In this document: piece by piece, positions 8,013 to 51,428 of the stretch
How the letters are laid out: the number at the start of each line of letters is the position of its first letter
Numbering within the stretch: the stretch's first letter is position 1
Assembly (NCBI GenBank): GCA_035720425.1
Contig: DASTOB010000120.1
Coordinates: 229-64,228, forward strand
Length of the DNA: 64,000 nt
Source of the DNA: Candidatus Limnocylindrales bacterium
GTDB taxonomy: Bacteria > Chloroflexota > Limnocylindria > Limnocylindrales > CSP1-4
Direction: 5' to 3'
The notes under the pieces: model-generated
Told to the model about the DNA's origin: nothing
Seen by the model: the letters and a program-made list of their open reading frames with translations, nothing else
Database searches by the model: none
Position numbers and translations under genes: made by a program

Positions 8013-8398
8013 CAGATCGTCTCGACGTCGTAGCGGCCGATGACGGGGTCGGCGGTGACGATCGGCAGCCCCTCGATCTGCGCCTGCGCGACAAGCAGCC
8101 GGTCCCAGGGGTCGCGATGGATGTCCGGCAGGAGCCCGACCCGCAGACCATGACGGAGCTCGAGGGCGAGCACGCCGAATCCGTGGCGCGCGATTCGACT
8201 CGGCACGTATCGGTCCGGCGGCGCTTCTAGTTCGAGTCGTCCACGGGCCACCTTCGTTGCGATCTCGGCCGCCGAGACTGCGCTTACGACAGGTTCCGTC
8301 GCGCCGTCCTCGATGAGCTCGCGCGCGCGAACCGAGAGTCGCGCCCCACCTCCGGATACCCACCAGAGAAACGCGTGGGTGTCGAGCAGGACCCTCAT
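8009..8398 (-). CDS. vapC: VapC/PIN-domain type II toxin
   Basis: MRVLLDTHAFLWW...SAVSAAEIATK...HRDPWDRLLVAQAQIEGLPIVTAD. Confidence 0.92.
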   Translation of the reverse strand: MRVLLDTHAFLWWVSGGGARLSVRARELIEDGATEPVVSAVSAAEIATKVARGRLELEAPPDRYVPSRIARHGFGVLALELRHGLRVGLLPDIHRDPWDRLLVAQAQIEGLPIVTADPVIGRYDVETIW

Positions 8399-8684: not shown

Positions 8685-9798
8685 ACAGCCCGACGAGGCG
8701 AGCGACCCGCTCGGCGCACCGCACAAGCGGCTCCGGGCCGGCGGACATCGCCTCCTCGACCGACTGCGGGCGCTCGACGACGGGAACGGCAACGCAGCCG
8801 AGGGCCGCCAGCGCCGACGCGCCCTCCGGCTCGACGCCGCCGCCGACCGCGATCGACGGCAGCCCGTGCGCGTGGGCCCGATGCGCGACGCCGAGGGCGG
8901 TCTTGCCGAACGCGGTCTGCGCGTCGATCCGGCCCTCGCCGGTGATCACGAGGTCCGCTCGGTCGAGCTTGCCGTCGAGATCGGTCTCCTCCATGAGAAC
9001 GTCGATGCCCGGCACGAGCTCGAGGGAGTGGAATCGGTCGCGCAGACAGAGCAGGCCGAAGCCGACGCCTCCCGCTGCGCCAGCTCCGGGCGTGTCGCGC
9101 TCGCGGTTGCGGGTCGAGGTTTCGAGTGCGTCGGCATAGCGGGCGAGGGCACCGTCGAGGAAGGCGACGTCGTCCGGCGTCGCTCCTTTCTGCGGCCCGT
9201 ATGTGGCCGCGGCGCCGTGAGGCCCGAGGAGCGGGTTCGTGACATCGCAGGCGATGCGCAGGTCCACCTCGCCAAGGCGCGGATCGATGCCGGCGAGGTC
9301 GATCGCGTCGCCGTCGACCGTCGCGCCGAGGGCCCGAAGGATCCCGACGCCGCCGTCGTTCGTGGCGCTGCCGCCGATGCCGAGCGTGATGCGGCGCACC
9401 CCATCGTCGATCGCCGCCCGGAGGAGTTCGCCCGTGCCGCGCGTCGTCGCCCCGCGCGGATCGCGCTCATCGGGCGCGAGGCGCGACAACCCGGACGCGG
9501 CGGCGAGCTCGACGACGGCGCGCCCCCGGTCCGCCGAGCGCAGCCAGCGGGCGACGATGGGGCGGCCGATCGGGTCCGTCGCGCGGGCCTCGCGCCATTC
9601 CCAGCCACCCGCCGCCTCGATCGCGACCAGGGTCCCTTCGCCGCCGTCGGCGAGTGGTGCGAGGAGGATCGTGTCTCCTGGACGGGCTTGGTGCCAGCCA
9701 TCGGCCAGGGCCTTGGCGACCTCGACCGAGGTGAGCGACCCCTTGAAGGAATCCGGTGCAATGACGACGGTCAGGGCTGGTGCGGCGGGCCAGTTCAT
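8665..9798 (-). CDS. glxK: Glycerate kinase (GlxK/GarK family)
   Basis: IAPDSFKGS, PLADGGEGT, ELAAASGL, GIGGSATNDGG, YGPQKGA, GAGAAGG, ITGEGRIDAQTAFGK. Confidence 0.93.
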   Translation of the reverse strand: MNWPAAPALTVVIAPDSFKGSLTSVEVAKALADGWHQARPGDTILLAPLADGGEGTLVAIEAAGGWEWREARATDPIGRPIVARWLRSADRGRAVVELAAASGLSRLAPDERDPRGATTRGTGELLRAAIDDGVRRITLGIGGSATNDGGVGILRALGATVDGDAIDLAGIDPRLGEVDLRIACDVTNPLLGPHGAAATYGPQKGATPDDVAFLDGALARYADALETSTRNRERDTPGAGAAGGVGFGLLCLRDRFHSLELVPGIDVLMEETDLDGKLDRADLVITGEGRIDAQTAFGKTALGVAHRAHAHGLPSIAVGGGVEPEGASALAALGCVAVPVVERPQSVEEAMSAGPEPLVRCAERVARLVGLLTKSMD

Positions 9799-10137
9799 CG
9801 CTGTGCTGGCTCCGGGCGATTCATCGCTGTGCTGGCTCCGGGCGATTCATCGCTGTGCTTGCTCCTGGCCAATTCATCGCTGCATCACAGCGGGGCCCCG
9901 CACGCTCGCCCGACCTCGTGCTCCGTCGGAATCGCCGTCCCGCCGAGCGTGCCGGGCGCCCGTTTCATTCACGGCTGAGTCCGTGCCCACCGCTGAATCC
10001 CGGCTCGCGCCCGCTCCTGGCCAATTCATCGCTGCATCACAACGGGGCCCCGCACGCTCGCCCGACCTCGTGCTCCGTCGGAATCGCCGTCCCGCCGAGC
10101 GTGCCAGGCGCCCTTTTCATTCACGGCTGAGTCCGTG
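9794..10137. repeat. Compound repeat: 3 x 26-bp tandem unit followed by 2 x 125-bp direct repeat
   Basis: TTCATCGCTGTGCTGGCTCCGGGCGA-type units at 9794, 9820 and 9846. 125-bp copies at 9861-9985 and 10013-10137 differ at about 3 positions. Confidence 0.9.
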
Positions 10138-10160
10138 TCACCGATGACTACCGAACGCGG

Positions 10161-12101
10161 CTACGGGCTGCCAGCGAGCAGCCCGACGTCGCCCGCCTGG
10201 CGGCGGCGCTCGAGGTACTCGGGGATGCGGATCATCGGTGGGCGCTCCTGGTCGGCGAGCTCGATCACCTCGAGCGACAGCCGGCCGCGACCGGAGCGCG
10301 GCAGCTTCATCGTCGAGCCGAGTTCCGCAAACAGCCGCACCTTGCGCCGCTCCTCGAGCCGCTTCATGACCGCCTGGAGGATGACGAACGACATCCGCGA
10401 CAGCCCCTCGAGCTCCTGGTTTCGGTGGACCCGTCGCTCGAGGTCGACCTGCCCCAGGCCCTCGATACCGTGCCGCTCGGCCGCGTCGATGAGGTGCCCG
10501 ATCTCGACCGCGTAGCCGGTGAAGAACGGGATCGACTCGAGCAGCGCTCGGCGGCCCGCGTACTCGCCGGACAGCGGCTGGATGAGCCCGGACAGCTCTG
10601 GGAAGAAGAGGTTGATGAGCGGTCGCGCGACGAGCTCCGTGACCCGGCCGCCGCCGCCCTCCTTGAGCACCCCCTCCTGGACGATCGGGCGCTGGTAGTA
10701 GCCCTTGACGTACTGGAGCCGCGGCTCGTGGAGGAGCGGCCCGAGGGTCCCGTAGACCATCCGATGGTGCCAGTTGCGGACGTCCGTGTCGGCCCACACG
10801 ACGATGTCGCCGGCCGTCTCGAAGAGGGACTTCCAGAGGGCCTCGCCCTTGCCGCGGAACGAGCCGTAGCGCGGCAGCACGTCGGGATGCTGGACGACCC
10901 GGGCGCCCTCCGCCTCGGCGATCTCGCGCGTCCGATCGTTCGACGCCGAGTCGATGACGAGGACCTCGTCGAGCAGCGGGATGCGGCCGACCATCTCGCG
11001 CATCGCGCGCCGGACGATGGGGCCGATCGTCTCCTCCTCGTTGAGCGTCGGCAGCACGAGGCTGACCGTGACGCCCTGCTTCTCCTTGAGCTGGACGAGC
11101 CGGCGCAGGTCGCCGAACTCGGCGTGGTGGAAGTTCGACTCGCCGAACCAGCGCTCGACCCGGACCGGCACGGCGCGCGCCTCCTCGGCGGCGCGGTCTG
11201 CGGCGGCAAGCGTCTCCGCCCGGGCGGCGAGCTGTTCGAACGTCTGGCGGCCGATCGTCTCGCGCGTCTTGACCACGACGACGCTCGGCTTCGCCCGCGT
11301 GGCGATGGCCTCCGGCAGGGCGCCGAACAGGAACGTGTCGCCGTCCTGGCCGGCCGGCACGGCCGACGCCCCCATGACCACGAGGTCCGCCCGTTCCGCC
11401 TCACGGAGGATCGCGTTTCGCACGTTCGCGGCCTCGCGGAGGAGCGGTTCCGCCCGGCCCCGCACGTGCTGCTTGATGAACGCGGTGAGGGCGTGCTCCG
11501 CCTGGGCCCGCACGGCGAGCGTGATCCCCGGGGGAACGAGGTGGAGCACGGCGACCTGGGCGTCGTGGCGCCGGGCGATCGCGTCGGCGAAGCGGATCGC
11601 GAGCTCGGCGTGCGGGCCTCCTCGGACCGGCACGAGGATCCGCTTGATGTCCTTCGCCCCGCGCTGCTTCACGACGGCGATGTCGCACGGCGATTCGCGC
11701 ACGACCTCGTCGATCGTCGGCGAGAACACGGGTCCGGCCGCGCTGTCGCGGCCCGAGGCGGACTTCCCTCCCCAGCCGAAGATGATGAGGTCGGACTCCT
11801 GTTCGGCCGCCGCCTCGACGATTCCCTCCGCCGCGTGGCGCCCGATCCGCACGATTGGCTGGAGGGTCGTGCCTTCCGGCGCGAAGTCCAGGACGCGCTG
11901 GAGGAGCCGGCGCGCGTGTCGTGCCCGCGTCGCGCCCTCGGACAGGGCCATTCCCTCCGGCACCTCGACGATGCCGAGCGCGGTCAGCTCGCCGGTTCGC
12001 TTGTCGAGGAGCGCCGCACCGAGGCGGACGAGCTCCTCCGCGGTGAGCGGGTTGGCGACGGGAATGAGGATCCGAGACGGGAGCGGCGAGCGGGTACTCA
12101 T
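10161..12101 (-). CDS. gpgS: Tandem universal-stress-protein domains fused to glucosyl-3-phosphoglycerate synthase
   Basis: N-terminal RILIPVANP...AEGIVEAAAEQESDLIIFG and RILVPVRGGPHA...AILREAERADLVVMG (2 USP domains). C-terminal VSLVLPTLNEEETI, GKGEALW, WADTD, GGGRVTELVARPL, QPLSGEYA, RVHRNQ (GT81 GpgS/MpgS). ATG 12101 has an ATGA overlap. Confidence 0.85.
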   Translation of the reverse strand: MSTRSPLPSRILIPVANPLTAEELVRLGAALLDKRTGELTALGIVEVPEGMALSEGATRARHARRLLQRVLDFAPEGTTLQPIVRIGRHAAEGIVEAAAEQESDLIIFGWGGKSASGRDSAAGPVFSPTIDEVVRESPCDIAVVKQRGAKDIKRILVPVRGGPHAELAIRFADAIARRHDAQVAVLHLVPPGITLAVRAQAEHALTAFIKQHVRGRAEPLLREAANVRNAILREAERADLVVMGASAVPAGQDGDTFLFGALPEAIATRAKPSVVVVKTRETIGRQTFEQLAARAETLAAADRAAEEARAVPVRVERWFGESNFHHAEFGDLRRLVQLKEKQGVTVSLVLPTLNEEETIGPIVRRAMREMVGRIPLLDEVLVIDSASNDRTREIAEAEGARVVQHPDVLPRYGSFRGKGEALWKSLFETAGDIVVWADTDVRNWHHRMVYGTLGPLLHEPRLQYVKGYYQRPIVQEGVLKEGGGGRVTELVARPLINLFFPELSGLIQPLSGEYAGRRALLESIPFFTGYAVEIGHLIDAAERHGIEGLGQVDLERRVHRNQELEGLSRMSFVILQAVMKRLEERRKVRLFAELGSTMKLPRSGRGRLSLEVIELADQERPPMIRIPEYLERRRQAGDVGLLAGSP

Positions 12102-13504
12102 CGGGCGGGCGTGGTCGACGCCGATCCGCCCGCCCGCTCCGCGGCGCTCCAGCGCTCGATGAGGTACGGCTTGAGCAGCTCGAACTCGCGGGCCTGGCGC
12201 TCGACACGTTCCTCCGCCTGGTCGGTCGAGACGTGGCGGTTCTCGATCACGAAGCTGCCGACGCGCCCGAAGTAGATCGGCACGAGCGCGGCGACGAGCG
12301 TCTCGAGTGGCGGCTCGCTGCGCCGGGCGGCGATGACGAGGTCGTACACGACCCGCGCCCACAGGTCGTCCGGGAAGTGGAACGCCGCGAGCGCATCGGC
12401 CATGTCGAGCGTGGACGCGGTCGTCGTCGACGTATCGCCCCCCACGCCGAGCTTCGTGCGCGCGGCATCGGCCAGCTTGCCGGCCTCCCGGGCCAGGACC
12501 TTGACCGTCTCCGCGTTGTCCGGGGCGAGCATCTCCGCCCAGCGGTCGGCGACGGTGAGCGACCCCTGGTGGAACTCGGAGAGGAGCCGGATCGTGTTCA
12601 CCTCGAGCGGTGGCGGCTCGATGATCCGCTCGAAGCCGTAGGCGGGCACGGTGTGACTGCCCTTGATCGGGAGCCACTTGTCGGAGTACCGGTTGGCGAG
12701 GCGCAGGATCGTCCCGACGACCTGGCGGAACATCGGTCCCAGGTCGGCGCCGGGATCCTTGGGGTCGTGGACCTTGGCGCCGAGCCGCGTCTGGCAGACG
12801 GCGAACCCGCCGGCGAGCGCGGACGTCGTCATCCAGATGTCGATCCCGAACTTGCTCACCTCGTCGTCCCAGTCGTCGAGCGTCAGATAGTGCCGGACGA
12901 GATCACCGGACACGCCGAAGTCGCCGCCGATTGGCTGCCGGATGCGGTGGCCGTACAGCGCGCGCGTGAGCGGGTAGGTGACCGTGTTCGTGATCGTGCC
13001 GTCGAACTTGTAGCGCGCGTAGAGCGGCGCCACGAAGTCGTAGCCACCCTTCAGGATCGGGCCGGCCAGCAGCTCGATCCATTCCGGGATGATCGAGCGC
13101 AGGTCGGAGTCGACGACGACGAGTGCCTGGGCCTCGAGCTCCGCGGCGATCTCGAAGATCGTCCGGAGCGCCGCGCCCTTGCCGCCGACGCCGTCGATCT
13201 CCGGGTAGGTCAGGCTGACCCGATCGAGCTTGTTGGTGGGCCGAACGAGGAGGATCTGCTCGACGTAGTCCGGCGGCTCCGTTTCGACGACGACCCGCTG
13301 GGTGCCGTCCGGCGACCCGGCGTCAGAGTTGACGAGGACCGGCTTGAGGTCCGGGAAGTACTGGACGAGGCCGGCCTGCGCGGCGCGGACGACATAGCCG
13401 ATCGTCGCGGCGTTCTTGAAGCTCGGGATGCCGACCATGATGTCGGCCCGGCCGAGTCGGGAGACCTCCTCCCGAATTGCCGGCGTGAGCACGCTCGAGG
13501 GCAC
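12098..13504 (-). CDS. GT-A glycosyltransferase, glucosylglycerate/mannosylglycerate synthase-like
   Basis: DIMVGIPSFKNAATIGYVV...VNSDAGSPDGT, GKGAALR, VVDSDLRS, YARYKFDGTITN, QPIGGDFG, FGIDIWMT, KVHD. Adjacent to gpgS and glxK. Exact specificity is not determinable from sequence. Confidence 0.7.
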   Translation of the reverse strand: MPSSVLTPAIREEVSRLGRADIMVGIPSFKNAATIGYVVRAAQAGLVQYFPDLKPVLVNSDAGSPDGTQRVVVETEPPDYVEQILLVRPTNKLDRVSLTYPEIDGVGGKGAALRTIFEIAAELEAQALVVVDSDLRSIIPEWIELLAGPILKGGYDFVAPLYARYKFDGTITNTVTYPLTRALYGHRIRQPIGGDFGVSGDLVRHYLTLDDWDDEVSKFGIDIWMTTSALAGGFAVCQTRLGAKVHDPKDPGADLGPMFRQVVGTILRLANRYSDKWLPIKGSHTVPAYGFERIIEPPPLEVNTIRLLSEFHQGSLTVADRWAEMLAPDNAETVKVLAREAGKLADAARTKLGVGGDTSTTTASTLDMADALAAFHFPDDLWARVVYDLVIAARRSEPPLETLVAALVPIYFGRVGSFVIENRHVSTDQAEERVERQAREFELLKPYLIERWSAAERAGGSASTTPAR

Positions 13505-40577: not shown

Positions 40578-40610
40578 GTTCTACGCGCCGGCCGTCCGGG
40601 AATCGTTACG
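40578..40610 (-). promoter_or_regulatory. SARP-type heptamer direct repeat, site A
   Basis: Minus strand CGTAACG-ATTC-CCGGACG-N9-TAGAAC, inside the 3' end of the membrane gene and upstream of the DUF1990-like gene. Confidence 0.65.
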
Positions 40611-41810
40611 AGCCGTTCCTCGAAGCCAGATGGTGAGCCGACTCGGGGCGACCGCGCCCTCGACGGAATCACTCAGCGAGGCGGCGATCGACGTCGTGTC
40701 GAGCACGCCGCGCAAGCGCAGGCCGAAGGTGTCGACCGTTCGCTGCGCGTCGACCCGCGCCCGGTGGAAGCGCCGGTCGACCGCCGTCTGGACCCGGTGC
40801 CGGACGGGCTGGAAGAGTGCAGCGACCGCGAGCGTGGACCCGGCGACAGCCAGCGTGTTCCCACTCGTCCAGGGCGCGAGCAGACCCTGCAGGCTCACAA
40901 CCAGGATTGCGAACGTCGCGACGAGGATGGCGGTGACGATCGCCCAGCCCAGCGTCCGGCTAATGATCCGATCGATCTCGAAGAGGCGGTAGCGAAGGAC
41001 GGCGATCCCGGTGGCCGTCGGCAGAGCAATCCACGCGACGAAAGCCGGCGCGACGGCGACCAGGAGTGGCCCGACGTTCCTGGTGTCCGTTCCGGGCGCC
41101 ACGCCCGCCACGGCAAAGGAGACAAGGATCGTCAGCACTCCGATCGGCAGCAGGGCAAGCGCCGCGAGGATCCAGCGCAGCTGCAGCCGTTCCGTTCCGC
41201 TCGAGCGACGATACCGCCGCACCAGCGTGAGGAAGCCGGCTGCCCAGAGAACGATCTGGCCGCCGCTCAGAACCGTCCGGTACGGAACGAGGCTCCACGG
41301 CAGCTCGGCCTCGGGAGCGATCGCAACCGGGTTGGGCATTCCTCCGGGGAGGCCGGTCACGTGCGGTGGGTAGATGGTCGGCGCGAAGGCCACGAGCCCG
41401 AACAGGAGGGTCGACAGCGCACACAGGGCTGCCGGGGCACCGCCGACGAACCGGGGCCGGCCACCACCCGGGAAGTCGAGCACGAGGGCGAGGAGTGCGA
41501 CTGCCGCCGCCGGCCAGCCAGACGCCGCAAGCCAGGCGAGGAGGCGGTCGGCGAGCGGCGCGCTTCCGTCCGCCAGCGCCACCGGGTCGCCGGACACTTT
41601 CAGCGTCGCGAACAACCCGGCCCAGCCGATCGCGATGAGCAGCCAACCGACGGCGTTCCACGGGCGTCGGACTGCAAGCAGACCCCCGACGGCGGCGTAG
41701 GGCAGGGAGTAGACGAGCGTCAGGACGTCGCCGGCGGCCAGTGCGAGGGCGACCGCGGCAGCCGTAGCAAGGCCGACGCCGAGGCCGCGCAGCAGGCTGA
41801 GACACGCCAT
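40581..41810 (-). CDS. Multi-TM sensor-like membrane protein ending in a partial GAF (paralog 1)
   Basis: About 9-10 TM helices. VGGLLAVRRPWNAVGW, NPVAI, ERLQLRW, IAVLRYRLFEID, LFQPVRHRVQTAVDRRF, ends AVAPSRLTIWLR...RNDSRTAGA*. Confidence 0.85.
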   Translation of the reverse strand: MACLSLLRGLGVGLATAAAVALALAAGDVLTLVYSLPYAAVGGLLAVRRPWNAVGWLLIAIGWAGLFATLKVSGDPVALADGSAPLADRLLAWLAASGWPAAAVALLALVLDFPGGGRPRFVGGAPAALCALSTLLFGLVAFAPTIYPPHVTGLPGGMPNPVAIAPEAELPWSLVPYRTVLSGGQIVLWAAGFLTLVRRYRRSSGTERLQLRWILAALALLPIGVLTILVSFAVAGVAPGTDTRNVGPLLVAVAPAFVAWIALPTATGIAVLRYRLFEIDRIISRTLGWAIVTAILVATFAILVVSLQGLLAPWTSGNTLAVAGSTLAVAALFQPVRHRVQTAVDRRFHRARVDAQRTVDTFGLRLRGVLDTTSIAASLSDSVEGAVAPSRLTIWLRGTARNDSRTAGA

Positions 41811-42518: not shown

Positions 42519-44132
42519 TCAGGACTCCTTGCGGGCGAGTCGCAGGGTGACCGTCTGGCCATCCCCGTCGCTTGCCACGTCCATCTGGTCGACCATGTTT
42601 CGGATGAGGAACAGGCCCCAGCCGCGCGGCTTCTGCTCGCCGGCCAGCTTGGCGTCAATGTCCGGGGCCTCGGCGTCGTCGGGGACCGGGCCCGACAGGG
42701 CCCGATCCGTGATCCGCACGACCACCTCGGCCGGCGTCGCGGCCACGACGAGGTCGACCGGCACGTCCTCGCGTCCAAGGCTCCCGTACTCGATCGCGTT
42801 CATCGTCGCCTCGCTGACGGCGGTCTTGAGCCGCTCGAGGCGGCGGCCGTTCAGCCCGAGGGGTGCGACGACGTCGGCGACCCGGTCCATTGCGCTCCGC
42901 TCGTTGCCGATCGCACCGGGCACGGAGAACGCCGCGAGCAGCTCCTCGCCCGGGTCCGCCCCGGCCGGTTCGGCGGCGGCGACCTCGCCGGCGCGGCGCA
43001 GGGCGACCATCGTGATGTCGTCCTCCTGCTCCCAGGTCGGTCCGGTGAACGCATGCAGGTGTTCGAGGACCCGATCGATGACATCGGACCCCGGAACGTC
43101 GAGCGTTGCGAATTCGTCGCGCAGGCGCGGGAAGCCGTACATCTCGCGCTCCGGGCCGTGGGCCTCGACGACCCCGTCGGAGTAGAGGAGGACGGTCGAT
43201 CCGGGTTGAATGACGGCCTCGGTCTCCTCGTACGCAACCCCAGCGAGCAGCCCAAGCGGCATGCCGGTGGCCCGGATTTCGGTGACCCGGTCGGCCGAGC
43301 GCACGTACGGCAGGTTGTGCCCGGCATTGGCGATGACCATCCGTCCCGATGCCGGTTCGAGGAACACGAGCAGGCACGTGACGAACATGCGGTTCGGCAT
43401 CTCCGGCACGAGCAATTCATTCGCCCGCGCGAGCACGGCGCCCGGCGACGGCGACCGCGACGCCTCGGCCCGCAGGATCGAATGGGTGCGGGCCATGACG
43501 AGCGCGGCCGGCACGCCCTTGTCGGTCACGTCGCCGACGACGATCGCGATCCGTCCGTCCGGCAGCTCGATGAAGTCGTAGAAGTCGCCGCCCACGGCGC
43601 GCGCGGGTCCGTAGTACGCGGCGACCTGCCACTCGGGGAGCCGCGGCAGGTCGCGCGGGAGGAACTGCTGCTGGATGAGCGTGGCGACCCGGAGCTCTTG
43701 GTCGATCCGCTCGCGCTCTGCCGCTTCGGCGGCCTGTTCCTGGACGAGCTGGGCGACGCGGATCGCGGGGGCCGCCTGGGCGGCCAGCGTGGCGAGGAGC
43801 CGCCGGTCGTCGGTCGAGTATTCCTGCTCCGACAGGCGTGGCCCCAGGTACAGGGCCCCGATCAACTCGCCGGACGTGACGAGGGGAACGATCAGCGAGA
43901 TGCCGGCGGCGCGCAGTTCGGCCAGGGCCGGGGAGGCGAGCTCGAGGCGGTAGACGTCGACCGCGCCGCTCGCGCCCTGGAGGTAGGCGAAGAGGGGGTC
44001 CGACGGCGCGATCTCGACGGCCGGCGCCTCAGAGACGGTCGGCACGGCAACTGGCTTGGCCACGACGGGTGCCTGGAGCGCGGTGTCGCCACCGAGTCCG
44101 ATGGTCCGGCGAATGGTGCGGAGCAACGTCAT
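42519..44132 (-). CDS. Partial GAF + SpoIIE/RsbU PP2C phosphatase + RsbW-type HATPase fusion
   Basis: GAF C-half SLIVPLVTSGELIGALYLG...DRRLLATLAAQAAPAI. PP2C VGGDFYD, GDVTDKG, LYSDGVVE, EDDITMV. RsbW AVSEATMNAIEYG, RGWGLFLIRNMVD. Confidence 0.92.
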   Translation of the reverse strand: MTLLRTIRRTIGLGGDTALQAPVVAKPVAVPTVSEAPAVEIAPSDPLFAYLQGASGAVDVYRLELASPALAELRAAGISLIVPLVTSGELIGALYLGPRLSEQEYSTDDRRLLATLAAQAAPAIRVAQLVQEQAAEAAERERIDQELRVATLIQQQFLPRDLPRLPEWQVAAYYGPARAVGGDFYDFIELPDGRIAIVVGDVTDKGVPAALVMARTHSILRAEASRSPSPGAVLARANELLVPEMPNRMFVTCLLVFLEPASGRMVIANAGHNLPYVRSADRVTEIRATGMPLGLLAGVAYEETEAVIQPGSTVLLYSDGVVEAHGPEREMYGFPRLRDEFATLDVPGSDVIDRVLEHLHAFTGPTWEQEDDITMVALRRAGEVAAAEPAGADPGEELLAAFSVPGAIGNERSAMDRVADVVAPLGLNGRRLERLKTAVSEATMNAIEYGSLGREDVPVDLVVAATPAEVVVRITDRALSGPVPDDAEAPDIDAKLAGEQKPRGWGLFLIRNMVDQMDVASDGDGQTVTLRLARKES

Positions 44133-44138
44133 GACGGT

Positions 44139-44171
44139 GTTCTACGCCTCCTTCGTCCGGAAATCGTTACG
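44139..44171 (-). promoter_or_regulatory. SARP-type heptamer direct repeat, site B
   Basis: CGTAACG-ATTT-CCGGACG-N9-TAGAAC-N6-ATG(44132). Confidence 0.7.
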
Positions 44172-45410
44172 GGATCGGAGCCACACACCGGCGGCAGCCG
44201 GGCTCATGGCGGCACCAACGGTGTTCTTGAAGTCGCCCTCGAGATCAGCCAGGTCGAGCTGTGAGCGCAGCCGCTCGCCGAACGCGGCCGCGACGCGCTC
44301 GCCGTCGTAGCGCGCCCGGTCGAAGCGCCGGTCGACCACGCGCTGGACCCTCGAGCGGAGTGGTGCGAACAGCGCGGCAACGACCAGCGTCGAGCCGGCT
44401 ACCGCGAGGGTGTCCCCTCCCGTGATCGATCCGAGGAGGTTGGACAGTCCGACGACGAGGATGATGAACGAGCCGACCAGCGCTCCGCTGACGATCGTCC
44501 ACGCGATCGTCCGGCTGATGATCCGGTCGATGTCGAACAAGCGATAGCGCAGGATCGCGGCCCCGATGGCCAGCGGCAGGGCTAGCACACCGAAGTACGC
44601 GAGGACGGCCGTAATGAGGATCCCGTCATCGACGCGCAGGGCAGACTCGATGGCAGTTCCGACAAATGCCACGATCACGAAACCCATTGCCGCGAGCAAC
44701 CAGCGGATCTGCAGGCGCTCGACGACGGTCCCGCGGCGATACCGGGTCACGAGCCCGAGCGCGCCGAAGGCGATCACCGCGATCAGTTGAAGCAGCAGGC
44801 TGTCGGCGAGGGGTGCCAGCGCCGCCGGCCAGCCCACCAATCCGAACGGATTGCCGCCGCCGCCCTCGAACAGCGGACCCGGGCGAAGCGCCAGTGCCGC
44901 CAGGCTCGTGCTCGTGATCCCGATGATCGCCAGCGATGGCGCGCGCCAGCGCGGCGACGGCAGCGTTCCCGTGGGGAAGAGAAGCGGCAGCCAACCGACG
45001 ATGAGGGCCATGCCCGGGTAGGAGAGCAGGAGCCCAGCCCACTGGATCACGCCGGCGGTCCCCCGGTCGGCCCCAGGCGTCAGCTCGCCACCGGCCGTCC
45101 AGATCAGCCCCAGCAGGGCGAACAGGGGGCCGCACAGCAGCATCAACAGGCCGATCGCGTGGCCGGGACGGCGCCACGCGATCACCGCTCCGACGAGCGA
45201 GAACAGCAGCGCGGTCGCGTTGAAGACGAGGACGAGCGCGATCGGCTCGACACCACCCGACTCACGCCGCGCATTGAGGCTGAGCAGGGCAACGGACAGA
45301 CCAAGCGACGCGGCGATCGAGGCCACCATCGCGGCGACCGCGAGTGGGCCGGGGCGGTGCTTGACCGACCCTCGCGGGTCATCTTGGCGCAGCGATCGTG
45401 TCGCGCTCAT
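44142..45410 (-). CDS. Multi-TM sensor-like membrane protein ending in a partial GAF (paralog 2)
   Basis: VGAVIAWRRPGHAIG, FPTGTLPSPRWR, NPFG, ERLQIRW, ILRYRLFDID, LFAPLRSRVQRVVDRRF, ends AMSPAAAGVWLRSRNDFRTKEA*. Start re-assigned to ATG 45410. Confidence 0.87.
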   Translation of the reverse strand: MSATRSLRQDDPRGSVKHRPGPLAVAAMVASIAASLGLSVALLSLNARRESGGVEPIALVLVFNATALLFSLVGAVIAWRRPGHAIGLLMLLCGPLFALLGLIWTAGGELTPGADRGTAGVIQWAGLLLSYPGMALIVGWLPLLFPTGTLPSPRWRAPSLAIIGITSTSLAALALRPGPLFEGGGGNPFGLVGWPAALAPLADSLLLQLIAVIAFGALGLVTRYRRGTVVERLQIRWLLAAMGFVIVAFVGTAIESALRVDDGILITAVLAYFGVLALPLAIGAAILRYRLFDIDRIISRTIAWTIVSGALVGSFIILVVGLSNLLGSITGGDTLAVAGSTLVVAALFAPLRSRVQRVVDRRFDRARYDGERVAAAFGERLRSQLDLADLEGDFKNTVGAAMSPAAAGVWLRSRNDFRTKEA

Positions 45411-45456
45411 CGCCGCCACGGCCCGACTGCAGCGGCACGGTGCGCGACGTGGTCGA

Positions 45457-45660
45457 TCATCGTTCCACCCGGGCGCGTGGCCGCAGCCAAATGTCCGCGC
45501 CAAACGGTCGGACCGCGCGGTGCGCGGTCGTGACTACCAGTTCGATCGGTCCCGACGATCGCTGCTTCAGGGTCAGGCCGCCGATCGGAATTGCCACGGA
45601 CACCACACATGCGGGCAGCCAGGGAGCGGCGACGTCGGGCCGAACGCTGTCGATGCGCAC
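45457..45660 (-). CDS. Putative 67-aa microprotein carrying only the AVxP-x5-WLR half-GAF tail
   Basis: VRIDSV...TTAHRAVRPFGADIWLRPRARVER* has the same P(+6)W-L-R spacing as the three membrane paralogs. Its GTG sits exactly 6 nt after the hexamer position of SARP site C. Confidence 0.55.
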   Translation of the reverse strand: MRIDSVRPDVAAPWLPACVVSVAIPIGGLTLKQRSSGPIELVVTTAHRAVRPFGADIWLRPRARVER

Positions 45661-45666
45661 GTCAGG

Positions 45667-45699
45667 AGTTTCTCCGAGAAACGTTCCGGGAACGTTACG
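45667..45699 (-). promoter_or_regulatory. SARP-type heptamer direct repeat, site C (divergent intergenic region)
   Basis: CGTAACG-TTCC-CGGAACG-N9-GAAACT-N6-GTG(45660). The regulator's own TACCGT-N6-GTG lies 20 bp away on the + strand. Confidence 0.7.
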
Positions 45700-45730
45700 G
45701 AATCGTGGCCACAAGCGCTACCGTTACGCC

Positions 45731-48688
45731 GTGCCTGGTTCGGATCGCCTCGACATCCGGCTGCTCGGCCCGCTCGAGATCGTGGCGGACGGCCGGCCAC
45801 TCGTCGTTGACACGCGCAAGGCGCTCGCGATCGTGGCGCTCCTCGCCGCGGAGCGTCGATCGTTCGCACGGGAGGAGCTGGCGGCGCTGCTCTGGCCGGA
45901 CGCGGACGACGAGTCGGCCCGCGGGGCCCTGCGTCGCACGCTGTCGTCGCTGCGTGCGGCGCTTGGGGGCCGATGGCTGCGCGCGGATCGCTCGACCGTC
46001 GGGCTCGACCCGGACGGCGTGTCGGTCGACCTCGATCGGGCTACGGCCGTTGCGGCAGGCGGGTCTGTCGGCGACCTCGCCGCCGCGGCGGACCTGCATC
46101 GTGGCCCGTTCATGGCCGGCTTCACCCTGCGCGACGCGCCGGAGTTCGACGACTGGCAGGCGGCCCGCGCGACTGCCGTCGCCGCCCAATTCGCCGGGCT
46201 GCTCGATCGACTCACGTCGGCCTTGCACGAGGCGGGCGATGCGGCCGGGGCCGTGGCGGCGGCGCGTCGGAGGATCGACCTCGACCCGCTCGACGAGGGC
46301 GGTCAGCGACGGCTCATCGAACTCCTCGCCGCGACGGGCGATCGATCCGGGGCCATTCGCCAGTACCGCGCCTGTGTCGCCGTGCTCGAGGCGGAGCTCG
46401 GGGTCCCGCCGCTGGCCGAGACCACCGAACTCTACGAACGCGTCCGGGACGACCGGGTCAGCACGTCAGCCGCGGTCGCGCCGCTGACTTCACCACCTTC
46501 GCCGGTTGCCGGAGCTCCGCGCCTTCCGGCTGCCGATGCACCACCATTCGTGGGCCGCGCCGGCGAACTCGAGACCCTGCTCGCAGCCCACGGCGCGGTC
46601 GACCGCGACGGCGCGCTCGCGATCGTCGAGGGCGAGGTCGGGATCGGCAAGACCCGCCTCGCGGAGGTGTTCAGCGACGCCGTGCGTCGCCGCGGCGCGC
46701 GCGTGCTCGGTGCGCGCTGCTATCCGGGCGAGCAGTCGGTCGCCTACGGTCCGATCATCGCGCTGCTCCGAGCCGGCCTGGCGCTGCCGGGCGGCGCGGA
46801 CCGGCTCGCCTCGCTCTCGGAGGTGGCGCGAACCGCCCTCACATCCCTCGATCCGGCGGTGAGCGCCGGCGGCGGACGTCGTGGCCGATCGCTCGTCCCC
46901 CTCGACGAGGGTGCCGCCCGCGCGCGATTGCTCGACGCGATCGCCGACGGGTTGACCGCCCTCACGGTGGGTGACGCAGCGGGGCTGGTCTGGCTCGACG
47001 ACGTCAACTGGGCGGACGAGGCGACGCTCGAGACGATCGCCTACCTCGGCCGCCGCCTCGCCGGCCGGTCGCTGCTCGTGCTCGTGACGTGGCGGCGCGA
47101 GGACCTCGACGGCATCGCGCTCCAGACGGTCGCCGGATTCGAGCGGACCGCCCGCGCCCACGTCCGTCTGCGGCGACTCGACCGAGATGCCGTTGCATCG
47201 CTCATCGGCGCCCTCGCCCCCGACGAGTCACGGCAGCCCGGCGTGATCGACGCGCTCGCGACGCGATCCGAAGGCGTTCCGCTGTACATCGTCGAGGCGC
47301 TTGCCGCTCCACGGCCGTCGGCCGCACCTGCGATCGCAACGGCGACGGCTACCGCCATTCCGCCTGGCGTGCGGGCGCTCGTCGCCGAGCGGCTGGCGTC
47401 GCTCGATGGTGCAGCCGGGCAGTTGATCGCGGCCGCCGCGGTGATCGGCCGATCGTTCGACGCGGGGATGTTGCGGCACGTCAGCGGCCGAACGGAAGAC
47501 GAGGTGATCGACGGCCTCGACCGGCTCGTGCGCCGGGGGTTCGTGCGCGAAACGGCGACCGCGACCGTGCGCGAGCCTGCGTTCGACTTCGTCCACGGCA
47601 GCGTTCGCGAGGTCGTCCTCGAGGGTTCCAGCCTGACCCGGAAGCGCCTCCTCCACCGGCGTGTCGCCGAGGCGGTCGCCGCCAGGCCGGTCGCTTCGCT
47701 CGGCGAGCCTGCCGTCGTCGACCGGCTCGACGGTTCCGTGGCGGCGTCGGCCGCGGTTCACCTCCGTGATGCCGGCCACGATCGCGAGGCTGCCCTGGCC
47801 TTTGCCAGGGCAGCAGACCATGCGCGATCGGTCCACGCCAACGCGGAGGCGGCCGAGCTCGCCCGGTCGGCGCTGGCACTCGGGCACCCGGACCCGGCCC
47901 GACTCCACGTCGTCCTCGGCGACATCGCCACGCTGTCCGGACGCTACGGAGAGGCGATTGCCGAATTCGAGGGCGCGGCGGCCGCCGCGTCAGCCGCGTC
48001 AGCCACGTCACCCGCGTCGACCTTGTCGGCCGCGTCGGCCGACGACGAGGCCCGGGACCGCCTGGCCGACCTCGAGCATCGGCTCGCCCTCGTCCATCAG
48101 CGCCGTGGCGATCCCGACACGGCCGACACCCACTTCGTCGCCGCGCTCGAGTTGACCGCCGACCGAGCGACGCGGGCGCGCATCCTCGCCGACCGGAGCC
48201 TCGGCGCGCATCTCGCGGGTCGGGGCGAGCAGGCCGCCGCGCTGGCGGCCGACGCGCTTGCCGCGTCCGACGAGTCCGGTGACGACCTCGCGCGGGCCAG
48301 GGCGGCCAACGTTGCCGGCGTCCTGGCCACCGAGCGCGGCGATCCCGCCGCGGGGCGGGTGCTTATCGAGCGGAGCCTCGCCCTCGCCGAGGCACGCGGC
48401 GAGATCCCGGCTCGGATCGCCGCCCTCAACAACCTCGCGCGCGCGGTGGCGGCGACCGGAGACGTCGACCTCGCGATCGAGTTCACCGATCTCGCCCTCG
48501 GCCTGTGCCGCTCGATCGGCGATCGACACCGCGAGGCGGCCCTCCACAACCATCGGGCCGACCTGCTCCGCGAGGCGGGGCGGCGTGACGCGGCCATCGA
48601 CGAGCTGAAGCAGGCGGTGGCGATCTTCGCCGATGTCGGCGAGCCGGGGGAGCTCGAGCCAGGCAAGTGGCGCCTGGCCACGTGGTGA
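45731..48688 (+). CDS. AfsR/SARP-family transcriptional activator (OmpR-type wHTH, BTAD, STAND AAA, TPR)
   Basis: IRLLGPLEI...RKALAIVALL...REELAALLWPD...ARGALRRTLSSLR. BTAD HRGPFMAG...FDDW...DPLDE...AIRQY...LGVPP. Walker A GEVGIGKT, WLDDVNWAD, EGVPLY. TPRs. GTG 45731 is preceded by TACCGT-N6. Confidence 0.93.
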   Translation: MPGSDRLDIRLLGPLEIVADGRPLVVDTRKALAIVALLAAERRSFAREELAALLWPDADDESARGALRRTLSSLRAALGGRWLRADRSTVGLDPDGVSVDLDRATAVAAGGSVGDLAAAADLHRGPFMAGFTLRDAPEFDDWQAARATAVAAQFAGLLDRLTSALHEAGDAAGAVAAARRRIDLDPLDEGGQRRLIELLAATGDRSGAIRQYRACVAVLEAELGVPPLAETTELYERVRDDRVSTSAAVAPLTSPPSPVAGAPRLPAADAPPFVGRAGELETLLAAHGAVDRDGALAIVEGEVGIGKTRLAEVFSDAVRRRGARVLGARCYPGEQSVAYGPIIALLRAGLALPGGADRLASLSEVARTALTSLDPAVSAGGGRRGRSLVPLDEGAARARLLDAIADGLTALTVGDAAGLVWLDDVNWADEATLETIAYLGRRLAGRSLLVLVTWRREDLDGIALQTVAGFERTARAHVRLRRLDRDAVASLIGALAPDESRQPGVIDALATRSEGVPLYIVEALAAPRPSAAPAIATATATAIPPGVRALVAERLASLDGAAGQLIAAAAVIGRSFDAGMLRHVSGRTEDEVIDGLDRLVRRGFVRETATATVREPAFDFVHGSVREVVLEGSSLTRKRLLHRRVAEAVAARPVASLGEPAVVDRLDGSVAASAAVHLRDAGHDREAALAFARAADHARSVHANAEAAELARSALALGHPDPARLHVVLGDIATLSGRYGEAIAEFEGAAAAASAASATSPASTLSAASADDEARDRLADLEHRLALVHQRRGDPDTADTHFVAALELTADRATRARILADRSLGAHLAGRGEQAAALAADALAASDESGDDLARARAANVAGVLATERGDPAAGRVLIERSLALAEARGEIPARIAALNNLARAVAATGDVDLAIEFTDLALGLCRSIGDRHREAALHNHRADLLREAGRRDAAIDELKQAVAIFADVGEPGELEPGKWRLATW

Positions 48689-48728: not shown

Positions 48729-49949
48729 TCAGCCGTCGCCCCGCCCGGCGCGCAGCCAGAGCGCGATCCGATCCGGCTCGACGGCGCTCGCGGCGACGGC
48801 CACTGATCGCTCTCGCAGCGTGGCGAGGTCGACCTCGTCACGCAGGTGGTCGGCGAACGCCGCGGCCAATCGCTCCGCGTCGAACCGCGCGCGGTGGAAG
48901 CGCCGATCGACGGCGCGCTGCGTCCGGGCCCGGACGGGCGCGAAGAGGCCCGCCACGAGCAAGGTCGACGCAGCGACGACGAGCGTGTCTGCCTGGACGA
49001 TCGGAGCCAGCACCCCCTGGAGGACGAGGTTCGCGCCGAGGAACACGATCGTCAGGACGGCCGTTACCGCCGCGTAGCCGATCGTCCGGCTGACGATGCG
49101 GTCGATCTCGTACAGCCGGTAGCGAAGGATCGCGATCCCGATCCCGATCGGGATGAGCAGTGGCGAGACGACGACGAGGATCAAGGCGACCGTCGCGATT
49201 GGATCGCTCCAGTTCGAGACGAACAGGATCGCCATGCCGGACGCGGCCGCCGCGGCCGCGGACAGCACCCAGCGGATCTGCGCGCGGACGCGAGGGGACG
49301 ACCGTCGGTACGTCACGAGCGAGGCAGCAAGCGACAGGAGCGCTGCGAGGCTGAGGAAGCGGGGTGCCCATTCGGCCGCCAGATCGAAGACCTCCACGGG
49401 GAGACTGAAGATGGCAATCGGGTTGGCCGAAATGAGGATCCACGAGATCGGCACCTCACCCGGACGCCAGAGCTGGAGTGCCTGGAGTACGGCGAAGACG
49501 ACGATCAGTGCATCGATGATCCGCCACTGCCTGCCCGGTAGGCGGCCGTCCGGAAACCGGGCCAGGATCACCACGATCCCGACGAGGCCGAACCATTGCA
49601 GGTACGCGGTCAGGTTCGCGCCGACGATCAGGACCGCCGGCAATCGTCCTGGCGCTACGTCGGCAATCGCGACGATCGCCACGATGGCGAGCTGCACGCC
49701 AAGCACAAGGCCGGTCGCGAGGCAGATCCGACCGATCACGTTGCCCGGCCGCCGGGACACGATGAGCGCTCCGACCATCGTGAAGCCGACCGCCAGCGCG
49801 GGCGACCAGACCAGCTCGGTCACGTCGGCGTAACCGCGTCGAATGAACACCACGACCCAGATGCCGATGATCGCGACGGCGATCGCGAACAGCAGGGCGA
49901 GCAGGAGCCCCCGCAATCTCCACGCTGCGCGATCGGGCGGGGCGATCAC
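48729..49949 (-). CDS. Multi-TM sensor-like membrane protein ending in a partial GAF (paralog 3)
   Basis: VGALIVSRRPGNVIG, FPDGRLPGRQWR, NPIAI, RAQIRW, IAILRYRLYEID, LFAPVRARTQRAVDRRF, ends AVEPDRIALWLRAGRGDG*. GTGA-coupled to the nucleoside hydrolase gene. Confidence 0.87.
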   Translation of the reverse strand: MIAPPDRAAWRLRGLLLALLFAIAVAIIGIWVVVFIRRGYADVTELVWSPALAVGFTMVGALIVSRRPGNVIGRICLATGLVLGVQLAIVAIVAIADVAPGRLPAVLIVGANLTAYLQWFGLVGIVVILARFPDGRLPGRQWRIIDALIVVFAVLQALQLWRPGEVPISWILISANPIAIFSLPVEVFDLAAEWAPRFLSLAALLSLAASLVTYRRSSPRVRAQIRWVLSAAAAAASGMAILFVSNWSDPIATVALILVVVSPLLIPIGIGIAILRYRLYEIDRIVSRTIGYAAVTAVLTIVFLGANLVLQGVLAPIVQADTLVVAASTLLVAGLFAPVRARTQRAVDRRFHRARFDAERLAAAFADHLRDEVDLATLRERSVAVAASAVEPDRIALWLRAGRGDG

Positions 49950-51395: not shown

Positions 51396-51428
51396 AGGAA
51401 AGCGGTCCGCCGCTACGGACTCGTTACG
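51396..51428 (-). promoter_or_regulatory. SARP-type heptamer direct repeat, site D
   Basis: CGTAACG-AGTC-CGTAGCG-N9-TTTCCT-N7-ATG(51388). The first heptamer contains the upstream gene's TAA. Confidence 0.6.

What the first reader, a model, noticed from the sequence alone, without database searches (positions are those of the whole stretch)
45457..45660. Unannotated 67-aa ORF encoding only the half-GAF tail motif
Seen: VRIDSVRPDVAAPWLPACVVSVAIPIGGLTLKQRSSGPIELVVTTAHRAVRPFGADIWLRPRARVER*. AVRPFGADIWLR aligns without gaps to AVAPSRLTIWLR, AMSPAAAGVWLR and AVEPDRIALWLR of the three membrane paralogs. Its GTG falls exactly where SARP box C predicts a leaderless start. Inference: a soluble decoy or constitutive complementing peptide for the phosphatase half-GAF, or a remnant of a deleted fourth sensor.
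Basis: partly seen in the sequence, partly recalled or inferred. Interest (0 to 1): 0.65.

Follow-up and report, generated by a model that had tools for sequence, protein, structure and literature searches.

The report
Collapsed sensor gene leaves short ORF
The 67-codon ORF is real, but it is what remains of a roughly 410-residue membrane sensor gene that lost its whole middle, keeping only its start and its last ~20 codons; this is ordinary gene decay in a tandem gene array, not a demonstrated new regulator.

Summary

**The match is not chance.**
- A matrix built from relatives' sensor tails ranks it 10th of 6.02 million six-frame positions in the genome. Six true sensors and three unrelated hits rank higher.
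- It lies directly upstream of a sensor gene.

**What it is.**
- A search of 1.84 billion proteins gave one hit, an intact 410-aa sensor (P0004).
- Residues 1-41 of P0004 are 68% identical to residues 1-41 of the ORF. Its tail matches the ORF's tail.
- On its contig, P0004 sits in the same place: 70 bp from a divergent SARP gene, starting at the homologous GTG six bases after the -10-like hexamer, and followed by the GAF-PP2C gene.
- Most of nine other relatives start a ~400-aa sensor at that position.
- So the ORF is an in-frame internal-deletion remnant, with about 335-345 codons and all but the first membrane helix lost.

**Is it still a working gene?**
- Coding statistics are indeterminate.
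- dN/dS against the intact gene is 0.48 for the N-terminal part and about 0.8-0.9 for the tail.
- No short homologue exists.

It probably still forms the leaderless first cistron or 5' leader of the sensor-PP2C operon. A decoy function is neither supported nor excluded.

The parts
45719..45733 (+). Leaderless-type start of the divergent SARP gene: TACCGT (45719-45724), N6, GTG (45731-45733). On the minus strand this is the upstream CGTAACGGTA element.
   Evidence: Nine relatives have the same TACCGT-N6-8-RTG followed by a SARP ORF. SARP domains are BTAD, AAA_16 and TPR.
45682..45699 (-). Box C: direct heptamers CGTAACG (45699-45693) and CGGAACG (45688-45682), 11 bp apart. Presumed binding site of the SARP activator.
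   Evidence: The box precedes sensors and the PP2C gene in this genome and in many relatives. A strict box pattern has only 6 matches in the 3 Mb genome (box C, boxes A and B in the tails of P1 and P2, upstream of two other sensors, and one site on contig C9 whose context was not examined), and a variant precedes a third sensor.
45667..45672 (-). -10-like hexamer GAAACT: 9 nt after the second heptamer and 6 nt before the GTG.
   Evidence: Relatives show the same N9-(xAxxxT)-N6-RTG geometry, and there the RTG usually begins a ~400-aa sensor. In L222 it reads GAAGCT-N6-GTG.
45538..45660 (-). ORF codons 1-41 (GTG start, short N-terminus, first membrane helix). Homologous to residues 1-41 of the intact sensor P0004.
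   Evidence: 28/41 residues identical, E 2e-16 pairwise and E 3.7e-10 against 1.84 billion proteins. 95/123 nt identical.
45520..45537 (-). ORF codons 42-47 (VVTTAH): the deletion junction.
   Evidence: Equally similar to L222 codons 47-55 and 381-389 (17/27 nt each over codons 42-50). In the intact gene the two sites share CTC..G ACG A.C.
45478..45519 (-). ORF codons 48-61 (RAVRPFGADIWLRP): remnant of the sensor tail.
   Evidence: 8/14 residues and 27/42 nt identical to the P0004 tail.
45457..45477 (-). Last six codons (RARVER) and stop TGA. The stop overlaps an ATG (ATGA, 45460-45457).
   Evidence: The end resembles the natural C-terminus of a sensor of the same subfamily, WLRPGRVSRR (P0011).
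45407..45460 (-). 17-codon linking ORF (MIDHVAHRAAAVGPWRR). Its TGA overlaps the ATG of sensor P2 (ATGA, 45410-45407).
   Evidence: Such a chain arises in 18% of dinucleotide shuffles, so it is not evidence of selection.
44142..45410 (-). Intact sensor paralog P2 (422 aa), the next gene on the presumed transcript. It is followed by the GAF-PP2C-kinase gene (42519-44132).
45457..45660 (-). The whole 67-codon ORF.

Best explanation
The ORF is the collapsed remnant of the promoter-proximal sensor gene of a SARP-controlled sensor array.

**Shown**
- It keeps the ancestral start codon, placed at the fixed distance after the box and the -10-like hexamer.
- It keeps the first 41 codons (N-terminus and first membrane helix).
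- It keeps about 20 codons of the cytoplasmic tail and a stop.
- About 335-345 codons in between are gone: roughly codons 50-383 plus five further codons (42-46), counted on the 410-aa relative.
- The two retained ends are in one reading frame.

**Inferred**
- The deletion may have occurred between two short similar sequences that lie in the same frame.
- The box C promoter still fires, so the remnant is now the 5' part of the mRNA for sensor P2, the GAF-PP2C-kinase and the STAS proteins.
- The transcript would begin with GUG, so the remnant is probably translated as a leaderless first cistron. Ribosomes could then pass on through two ATGA overlaps to P2, which has no evident Shine-Dalgarno sequence.
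- The 67-residue product itself most likely has no function of its own.
For: **Homology to an intact gene**
- The only hit of the 67-aa ORF in 1.84 billion representative proteins is a 410-aa sensor. It matches at residues 1-42 of both proteins and again at the tail.
- BLASTP gives 28/41 identities, E 2e-16, plus AVRPFGADIWLRP against AVRPANASVWIRP.

**Same genomic position**
- That sensor's contig reads SARP(-), 70 bp, sensor(+), GAF-PP2C(+).
- The 70-bp intergenic region is 55/70 identical to the window's, and the start codons are homologous.
- PP2C is 80% and SARP 60% identical between the two records.
- In nine further relatives the same divergent pair (TACCGT-N6-8-RTG for the SARP gene; box-N9-hexamer-N5-8-RTG, N6 in most, on the other strand) precedes the array. 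The RTG starts a sensor-sized ORF (378-605 aa as scanned) in seven of them, starts a 29-codon ORF joined by an ATGA overlap to a 399-aa sensor in L051, and was not found at that distance in L038.
- The window's own genome holds no intact copy of this sensor. Only the 41-residue piece at 45538-45660 matches.

**What is missing**
- No other sensor remnants occur in any frame of 45411-45735.

**Signs of relaxed constraint**
- dN/dS is 0.48 over the 41 N-terminal codons and 0.8-0.9 over the tail, against 0.17 for PP2C and 0.35 for SARP in the same genome pair.
- GC3 is 0.76, against 0.84-0.92 for real genes.
- The codon score is at the 7.5th percentile of real genes.

**No conserved short protein**
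- Searches found none.

**Truncated copies recur in these arrays**
- G042 has a 27-aa tail relic with 1 synonymous and at least 6 non-synonymous changes.
- L225 has a 78-aa ORF made of the N-terminus plus the tail.
- L049 has an internally deleted sensor.

**Leaderless translation**
[quoted passage not shown] Unannotated first-cistron short ORFs, some joined to the next gene by a 4-base overlap, are common there (PMC4633059).
Against: - The frame is intact, and the most conserved tail residues (P, W, L, R) survive.
- The first 31 codons show dN/dS 0.26. This is not significantly below what is expected if only the relative's lineage were constrained.
- The relic tail is as similar to relatives' tails (11/20) as the functional P2 tail is to its orthologue's (7/18, by my own count from the tail sequences printed).
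- In L225 an analogous leaderless ORF keeps a complete tail domain that scores 92.7 bits, within the range of real tails. A selected tail-only product is therefore conceivable.
- Transcription start, transcription and translation were not measured.
- The rules for leaderless translation come from Actinobacteria, whereas this genome is Chloroflexota (Limnocylindrales).
Confidence: 0.75

Rival explanations
1. The remnant is kept because its translation matters in cis. It would serve as a leaderless launch ORF that carries ribosomes, through ATGA stop-start overlaps, to sensor P2. That would protect a 250-nt leader from premature transcription termination and drive P2 translation without a Shine-Dalgarno sequence. 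Only in-frame or otherwise linked deletions would then survive.
For: - P2 has no evident Shine-Dalgarno sequence, while a leadered gene nearby has AGGAGG.
- The path GTG, 67 codons, ATGA, 17 codons, ATGA, P2 is complete.
- G042 shows GTG, 32 codons, ATGA, 27 codons, ATGA, sensor.
- L043, L044, L051 and L059/60/64 show leaderless short ORFs joined by ATGA to sensors.
- Both SARP-proximal collapses (the window and L225) are in frame.
- Overlapping 4-base junctions after leaderless short ORFs are known.
Against: - A complete chain of RTGA overlaps arises in 18% (window) and 15% (G042) of dinucleotide-preserving shuffles.
- Two in-frame cases out of two has a chance probability of 1/9.
- No expression data exist.
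- The leader shows no special fold (z = -0.13) and no Rfam match.
Confidence: 0.15
2. The ORF encodes a working micro-protein. It would be a tail-only (or one-helix plus tail) product that binds the N-terminal region of the GAF-PP2C-kinase and competes with, or substitutes for, the tails of the full-length sensors.
For: - The frame is intact.
- The P, W, L and R residues of the tail motif are conserved.
- L225 carries a 78-aa leaderless ORF with a complete, high-scoring tail in the same position.
- Two substitutions after the first helix (K32, R34) add positive charge, which could place the tail in the cytoplasm (inference).
Against: - No conserved short homologue exists.
- The 4,587 small database proteins that match the tail profile appear, in the 18 inspected, to be gene fragments.
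- The remnant lacks the RRFxRxRYD helix, which holds most invariant columns of the tail.
- Tail dN/dS is about 0.8-0.9.
- G042's relic carries proline and R-to-L replacements.
- If the first helix inserts as it does in the parent protein, the tail would face outward.
- The link between the tail and a GAF fold is itself unconfirmed.
Confidence: 0.08
3. The ORF is an artefact: a chance ORF with a chance motif, or an assembly collapse of a tandem array in this metagenome-assembled genome.
For: - A 67-codon open frame has about a 25% chance at this GC content (own estimate).
- The tail HMM gives only E 0.89 genome-wide.
- The genome is a 217-contig MAG.
Against: - Two separate pieces match one intact gene in the right order, position and frame.
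- The paralogs in the window are only 37-40% identical.
- The junction shares at most 9-12 nt of similarity, far too little to mislead an assembler.
Confidence: 0.02

Closest known systems
Gene remnants (pseudogene fragments) left by internal deletion in tandem paralog arrays
   Same: Both ends are homologous to an intact gene in a relative. The essential middle is missing, constraint is relaxed, and the remnant is lineage-specific. Sister cases occur in related arrays (G042, L225, L049).
   Different: The deletion is in frame and keeps a working-looking promoter and start codon. The remnant is therefore probably still transcribed and translated as the head of an operon.
Leaderless short ORFs as the first cistron of actinobacterial operons (Shell et al. 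2015, PMC4633059; Canestrari et al. 2020, bioRxiv 10.1101/834739)
   Same: A GTG sits at the predicted transcript 5' end. The ORF is short and unannotated, lies ahead of the operon's first annotated gene, and has 4-base stop-start overlaps.
   Different: The organism is a Chloroflexota MAG, and neither transcription start nor translation has been measured. There is no sensory codon tract such as the polycysteine runs, and the ORF's origin from a decayed gene is evident.
MicroProteins: small dominant-negative proteins derived from one domain of a larger protein (concept from plant biology; own knowledge)
   Same: A short product keeps an interaction-type segment of a larger paralog family that is still present in the genome.
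   Different: There is no evidence of interaction, conservation or selection here. The retained segment is only part of the tail domain.
SARP (AfsR/DnrI-type) activator sites: heptamer direct repeats 11 bp apart placed just upstream of the -10 element (own knowledge of Streptomyces SARPs)
   Same: Two CG(T/G)AACG heptamers lie 11 bp apart, 9 bp before a -10-like hexamer, next to a BTAD-AAA_16-TPR regulator gene.
   Different: Binding is untested. The phylum differs, and the targets are membrane sensors and a PP2C-kinase rather than antibiotic clusters.

Membership tests
Limnocylindrales multi-pass sensor family (about 400 aa, RRFxRxRYD...WLR tail) | Membrane body with about 10 helices | tested here: not met
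   The sensor HMM (397 positions) matches only positions 375-396. No remnants occur in other frames. Only the first helix is kept.
Limnocylindrales multi-pass sensor family (about 400 aa, RRFxRxRYD...WLR tail) | Invariant LFxPxR...DRRFxRxxxD segment after the last helix | tested here: not met
   These invariant columns are listed. They are absent from the ORF.
Limnocylindrales multi-pass sensor family (about 400 aa, RRFxRxRYD...WLR tail) | C-terminal A-V-x-P-x5-W-L-R motif followed closely by a stop | tested here: met
Limnocylindrales multi-pass sensor family (about 400 aa, RRFxRxRYD...WLR tail) | Start codon at box-N9-hexamer-N6, next to the divergent SARP gene | tested here: met
Gene remnant / pseudogene | Homology to parts of an intact gene at the same locus in a relative, with essential parts missing | tested here: met
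Gene remnant / pseudogene | Relaxed selective constraint | tested here: inconclusive
   dN/dS is 0.48 (41 codons) and 0.8-0.9 (14-20 codons), against 0.17 and 0.35 for neighbouring genes. The sample is too small to separate the two lineages.
Leaderless short ORF (first cistron) | ATG or GTG at the mapped transcription start | not testable with these tools
   Only the conserved promoter geometry supports it.
Leaderless short ORF (first cistron) | Ribosome occupancy or a detected peptide | not testable with these tools
   No data available.
Leaderless short ORF (first cistron) | Stop-start overlap with the downstream gene | tested here: met
   Two ATGA overlaps. This is not statistically unusual.
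GAF domain (the 'half-GAF' reading of the tail) | Tail matches the N-terminal part of a GAF profile or structure | tested here: inconclusive
   On the TAG=Q read-through product, Pfam GAF_3 starts at profile position 33, inside the PP2C protein. The tail has no Pfam hit and no PDB sequence or profile hit. The AlphaFold2 model had pLDDT 40.
Conserved small protein family | Homologues of similar length in other genomes | tested here: not met
   Small proteins that match the tail profile appear, in the 18 inspected, to be gene fragments.

The most novel reading that the evidence does not exclude
Collapsed promoter-proximal sensors are not just debris. Tail-bearing mini-ORFs, such as the 67 aa here and the 78 aa with a complete tail in L225, would be expressed from the SARP-dependent leaderless promoter. 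They would act as micro-proteins that occupy the tail-docking site of the single GAF-PP2C-kinase hub, setting its basal activity independently of any membrane signal.
Probability: 0.08. Interest if true: 0.7.

Novelty: new member of a known kind. Interest (0 to 1): 0.3.

Why it matters
**For annotation.** This settles how to treat the ORF. It should be marked as a remnant of a sensor gene, not as a new small regulator. The 250 bp between box C and sensor P2 is then explained.

**For the neighbouring findings.**
- Box C is the canonical 'first sensor' promoter, paired back-to-back with the SARP gene's own leaderless-type start.
- This geometry is conserved across Limnocylindrales.
- These sensor arrays gain and lose copies quickly.

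**If the minority reading were true.** It would be a clear bacterial example of a micro-protein born from a decaying paralog, and a direct handle on how output-less sensors talk to a PP2C hub.

Tried and rejected
**Searches for close relatives or homologues**
- DNA search of the intergenic region in 40 relatives found only box-sized matches.
- Protein search of the ORF in 100 family genomes gave noise only.
- A metagenome scan with P2 found nothing closer than 49%. Fourteen genomes with closer PP2C genes had no closer P2.
- The word-indexed search of 5.8 billion proteins found no candidate. Only the exhaustive HMMER search found P0004.

**Tests that gave no signal**
- Before P0004 was found, similarity of the ORF's N-terminus to 21 other sensor N-termini was not significant: 69% of shuffles scored as well.
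- Leader sequences of G042, G098 and G023 do not align beyond the box. G098's 51-aa leaderless ORF is unrelated (E 0.11).
- Rfam search and folding of the leader gave nothing.
- The E. coli-type promoter and terminator scan gave nothing, and that scan does not fit this phylum.

**An idea I tested and dropped**
- I first read the ATGA chain as a sign of selection. The shuffle test (18% and 15%) removed that.
- I first read the relic's ATGA as the ancestral junction between two sensors. Comparison with L222 and P0011 shows the end could equally be the sensor's own C-terminus or a decayed tail box, so this is left open.

**Tests of the 'half-GAF' idea**
- Pfam on the read-through product, PDB sequence and profile searches, and AlphaFold2 on a single sequence (pLDDT 40) all failed to inform.
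- An alignment of natural read-through sequences could not be built. In relatives the sensor stops before the box.

**Other**
- The tail-profile search for small proteins returned 4,587 hits. The 18 inspected were partial or internally started gene calls.

Full report
**Observation**

It starts at GTG 45660 and stops at TGA 45457-45459. An upstream TTG would extend it to 85 aa.

It lies in the 320-bp gap between two genes:
- a membrane protein gene (P2, 44142-45410, minus strand);
- a divergent BTAD-AAA_16-TPR (SARP-type) regulator gene, 45731-48688.

P2 has two paralogs in the window, at 40581-41810 and 48729-49949. All three end in A-[VM]-x-P-x5-W-L-R a few codons before the stop. The only other occurrence of that pattern in the six-frame translation of the window is in the ORF.

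**Context**

- The window is ~72% GC. Real genes have GC3 of 0.84-0.92.
- It comes from a 3.0-Mb, 217-contig MAG that is the only member of its genus in the collection.
- Named relatives are Chloroflexota, Candidatus Limnocylindrales.
- The sensor family forms large tandem arrays in this family of genomes.
- Synteny is conserved in G042 and G098: nucleoside hydrolase, sensor, SARP (divergent), several tandem sensors, GAF-PP2C-kinase, two STAS genes, an unknown 274-aa gene, and an FAD oxidoreductase.

**Is the 12-residue match chance?**

- An HMM of 98 relatives' tails, run against all 46,346 six-frame ORFs of the genome, ranks the ORF 9th, behind the six true sensors. E is 0.89, which is not significant on its own.
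- A 22-position matrix scanned over 6,019,898 positions ranks it 10th. Three unrelated hits rank above it: two out-of-frame stretches and an excisionase-like gene.
- Restricted to the ~1,800 positions just upstream of the six sensors on the same strand, about 0.001 hits are expected.
- A full-length sensor HMM matches only residues 42-63, to HMM positions 375-396, with E 5e-5 for the single target.
- Similarity to relatives' tails runs over 20-27 residues.

The match is therefore real homology, and it is limited to the end of the tail.

**Promoter geometry**

Upstream of the GTG, on the minus strand, the sequence reads CGTAACG-N4-CGGAACG-N9-GAAACT-N6-GTG.

- The same box precedes the PP2C gene (ATG at N6), the hydrolase gene, and the other sensors of this genome. 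A strict box pattern has only six matches in 3 Mb: box C, boxes A and B in the tails of P1 and P2, upstream of two other sensors, and one site on contig C9 whose context I did not examine.
- It is conserved in G042, G098, G023 and many metagenome contigs.
- A second element, CGTAACGGTA, lies 29 nt further upstream. On the other strand it reads TACCGT-N6-GTG, which is the start of the SARP gene.
- Nine relatives show the same back-to-back pair. In seven of them the RTG after the box begins a sensor-sized ORF (378-605 aa as scanned). In L051 it begins a 29-codon ORF joined by an ATGA overlap to a 399-aa sensor. In L038 my scan found no RTG at that distance.

More precisely, that GTG is the positional equivalent of the first sensor's start codon.

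**Decisive evidence**

An exhaustive HMMER search of 1.84 billion representative proteins with the 67-aa ORF gave one hit, P0004 (410 aa, E 3.7e-10). The match covers residues 1-42 of both proteins, plus a second stretch.

| ORF region | ORF sequence | P0004 sequence | Score |
|---|---|---|---|
| Residues 1-41 | MRIDSVRPDVAAPWLPACVVSVAIPIGGLTLKQRSSGPIEL | MRIDRVRPDVTAPWLAACALSVAIPIGGLNLGAGPSTPVDL | 28/41 identical, E 2e-16 |
| Tail | AVRPFGADIWLRP | AVRPANASVWIRP | second stretch |

- P0004 is a full-length member of the sensor family, 39% identical to P2.
- Its contig (L222) reads SARP(-), 70 bp, P0004(+), GAF-PP2C-kinase(+).
- The 70-bp intergenic region is 55/70 identical to the window's. 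The first 41 codons are 95/123 nt identical.
- PP2C is 80% and SARP 60% identical between the two records.
- The window's genome has no intact copy of this sensor. Only the 41-residue piece matches.

The ORF is therefore an internal-deletion derivative of the orthologue of P0004. Roughly codons 50-383 are lost, along with five further codons (42-46).

**The junction**

- ORF codons 42-50 are equally similar (17/27 nt) to L222 codons 47-55 and to codons 381-389.
- Those two sites share CTC..G ACG A.C in the intact gene.
- This fits a deletion between short in-frame similar sequences, but it does not prove one.
- The end, WLRPRARVER*, resembles the natural C-terminus of another sensor of the same subfamily, WLRPGRVSRR (P0011).
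- I cannot decide whether the tail piece comes from the same gene or from a neighbouring copy in a former array.

**Is it still a working gene?**

| Test | Result |
|---|---|
| GC at codon positions 1/2/3 | 0.75 / 0.57 / 0.76 |
| Codon-usage score | +4.2 bits: 7.5th percentile of 67-codon windows of real genes; about 80th percentile of open frames in unmasked regions |
| dN/dS vs L222, 41 N-terminal codons | 0.48 (0.26 for the first 31) |
| dN/dS vs L222, 14-20 tail codons | 0.8-0.9 |
| dN/dS vs L222, PP2C and SARP | 0.17 and 0.35 |

- The number of non-synonymous changes in the 41 codons (16) equals what is expected if the window's lineage were neutral and the relative's were constrained. The sample is too small for a firm statement.
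- The remnant lacks the LFxPxR...DRRFxRxxxD segment, which holds 10 of the 11 invariant columns of the tail.
- If its single helix inserts as it does in the parent protein, the tail would face outward. Two substitutions (K32, R34) could reverse that. This is inference only.
- The 'half-GAF' identity of the tail could not be confirmed.

**Other collapsed copies**

- **G042.** A 27-codon ORF, MSADVLATVDTAARPTAPGPWLLGSEP, lies directly upstream of the P2 orthologue and is joined to it by ATGA. Compared with that genome's five near-identical tails it has 1 synonymous and at least 6 non-synonymous changes, including A-to-P, L-to-P and R-to-L. This looks like neutral decay.
- **L225.** The first ORF after the SARP promoter (ATG at N6) is 78 aa: eight N-terminal residues plus a complete tail. 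It is joined by ATGA to the next sensor. Its tail scores 92.7 bits, within the range of real tails, and its GC3 is 0.79 against 0.85-0.89 for neighbouring genes.
- **L049.** It holds an internally deleted sensor.
- Identities place G042 and G098 closer to each other than to the window, so these collapses are independent events.
- A profile search for small tail-only proteins returned 4,587 hits. The 18 I inspected are contig-edge or internally started fragments of full sensors.

**How it most likely works now**

- Box C and its hexamer are intact, so the remnant should be transcribed with P2, the PP2C-kinase gene and the STAS genes.
[quoted passage not shown] Unannotated first-cistron short ORFs, some joined to the next gene by a 4-base overlap, are common there (PMC4633059; bioRxiv 10.1101/834739).
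- By extension, the 67 codons are probably translated.
- The stop overlaps an ATG (ATGA). That ATG opens a 17-codon ORF whose stop overlaps the P2 ATG.
- P2 lacks an evident Shine-Dalgarno sequence, so coupling may help its translation.
- However, such a chain arises in 18% of shuffled leaders. It is not evidence of selection.
- The leader has no Rfam match and no unusual fold.

**Limits**

- No genome of the same genus exists in any collection searched.
- No read or RNA data could be reached.
- Transcription start and translation are inferred.

**Verdict**

The 'remnant of a deleted fourth sensor' reading is right and can now be stated precisely. The decoy reading is unsupported but not excluded; the L225 case keeps it alive at low probability. 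This is an ordinary outcome of gene turnover in a tandem array, with a tidy anatomy.

Noticed in passing
window 45658-45733; L035, L037, L038, L040, L046, L051, L053, L075, L109, L222, L225: A conserved back-to-back pair of leaderless-type starts. TACCGT-N6-8-RTG is the SARP gene. 29 nt away on the other strand, CGTAACG-N4-heptamer-N9-xAxxxT-N6-RTG is the first sensor. The 'upstream box' CGTAACGGTA is simply the SARP gene's -10 region read on the other strand.
   Followed up: yes
window 44142-44171 and 40581-40610: The last codons of sensors P2 and P1 (R-N-D-F/S-R-T) are the heptamer box itself. P2's stop codon TAG is the first three bases of the PP2C promoter hexamer TAGAAC. In relatives (L029, L031, L036, L057) the sensor stops earlier and the box lies in non-coding DNA, so the in-frame arrangement of sensor, TAG and PP2C is not conserved.
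   Followed up: partly
L028 (G042) tails at 3767-3862, 8220-8324, 10273-10374, 11454-11555, 12716-12817: Five sensor paralogs of one genome are about 50% identical in their bodies but about 85% identical in the last 24 residues, and nearly identical at the DNA level. This suggests gene conversion, or co-evolution of all tails with one partner. G098 shows it more weakly (65% against 43%). The window's own three paralogs do not (25-29%).
   Followed up: partly
L225 5768-6004: A called 78-aa gene (MTRVPHRI plus a complete sensor tail domain) sits at the leaderless start after the SARP promoter and is joined by ATGA to the next sensor. It scores 92.7 bits on the tail HMM, like real tails.
   Followed up: partly
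L028 (G042) 8939-9160: Box, then GTG at N7, a 32-codon ORF, ATGA, a 27-codon tail relic, ATGA, and the P2 orthologue. The stop codon TAA of the preceding SRPBCC-like gene lies inside the CGTAACG heptamer. The same holds in the window, where the 250-aa gene ends at 51424-51426 inside box D.
   Followed up: partly
L059, L060, L064 versus L062, L063: Closely related contigs either start the sensor at the leaderless ATG, or have an 11-codon leaderless ORF (MSAVESSGGPR and variants) joined by ATGA to the sensor. This looks like rescue of N-terminal frameshifts by re-initiation.
   Followed up: no
L049 291-1160: A 289-aa ORF matches sensor HMM positions 9-141 and 341-395 only. It is another in-frame internally deleted sensor.
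   Followed up: no
whole genome (G000) and relatives: This high-GC genome has SARP-type regulators and leaderless-type promoters, but it belongs to Chloroflexota (Candidatus Limnocylindrales), not Actinomycetota. Smaller genomes of the same order (about 1.1 Mb) lack the DNA match.
   Followed up: partly
L029 (G098) 9480-10990: The sensor next to the SARP gene in this 10-contig MAG is split over three frames. This is either real decay or indel errors of a long-read assembly. Such errors probably account for some of the short 'tail-only' proteins in public databases; the 18 I read were contig-edge or internally started calls, and I did not separate the causes.
   Followed up: partly
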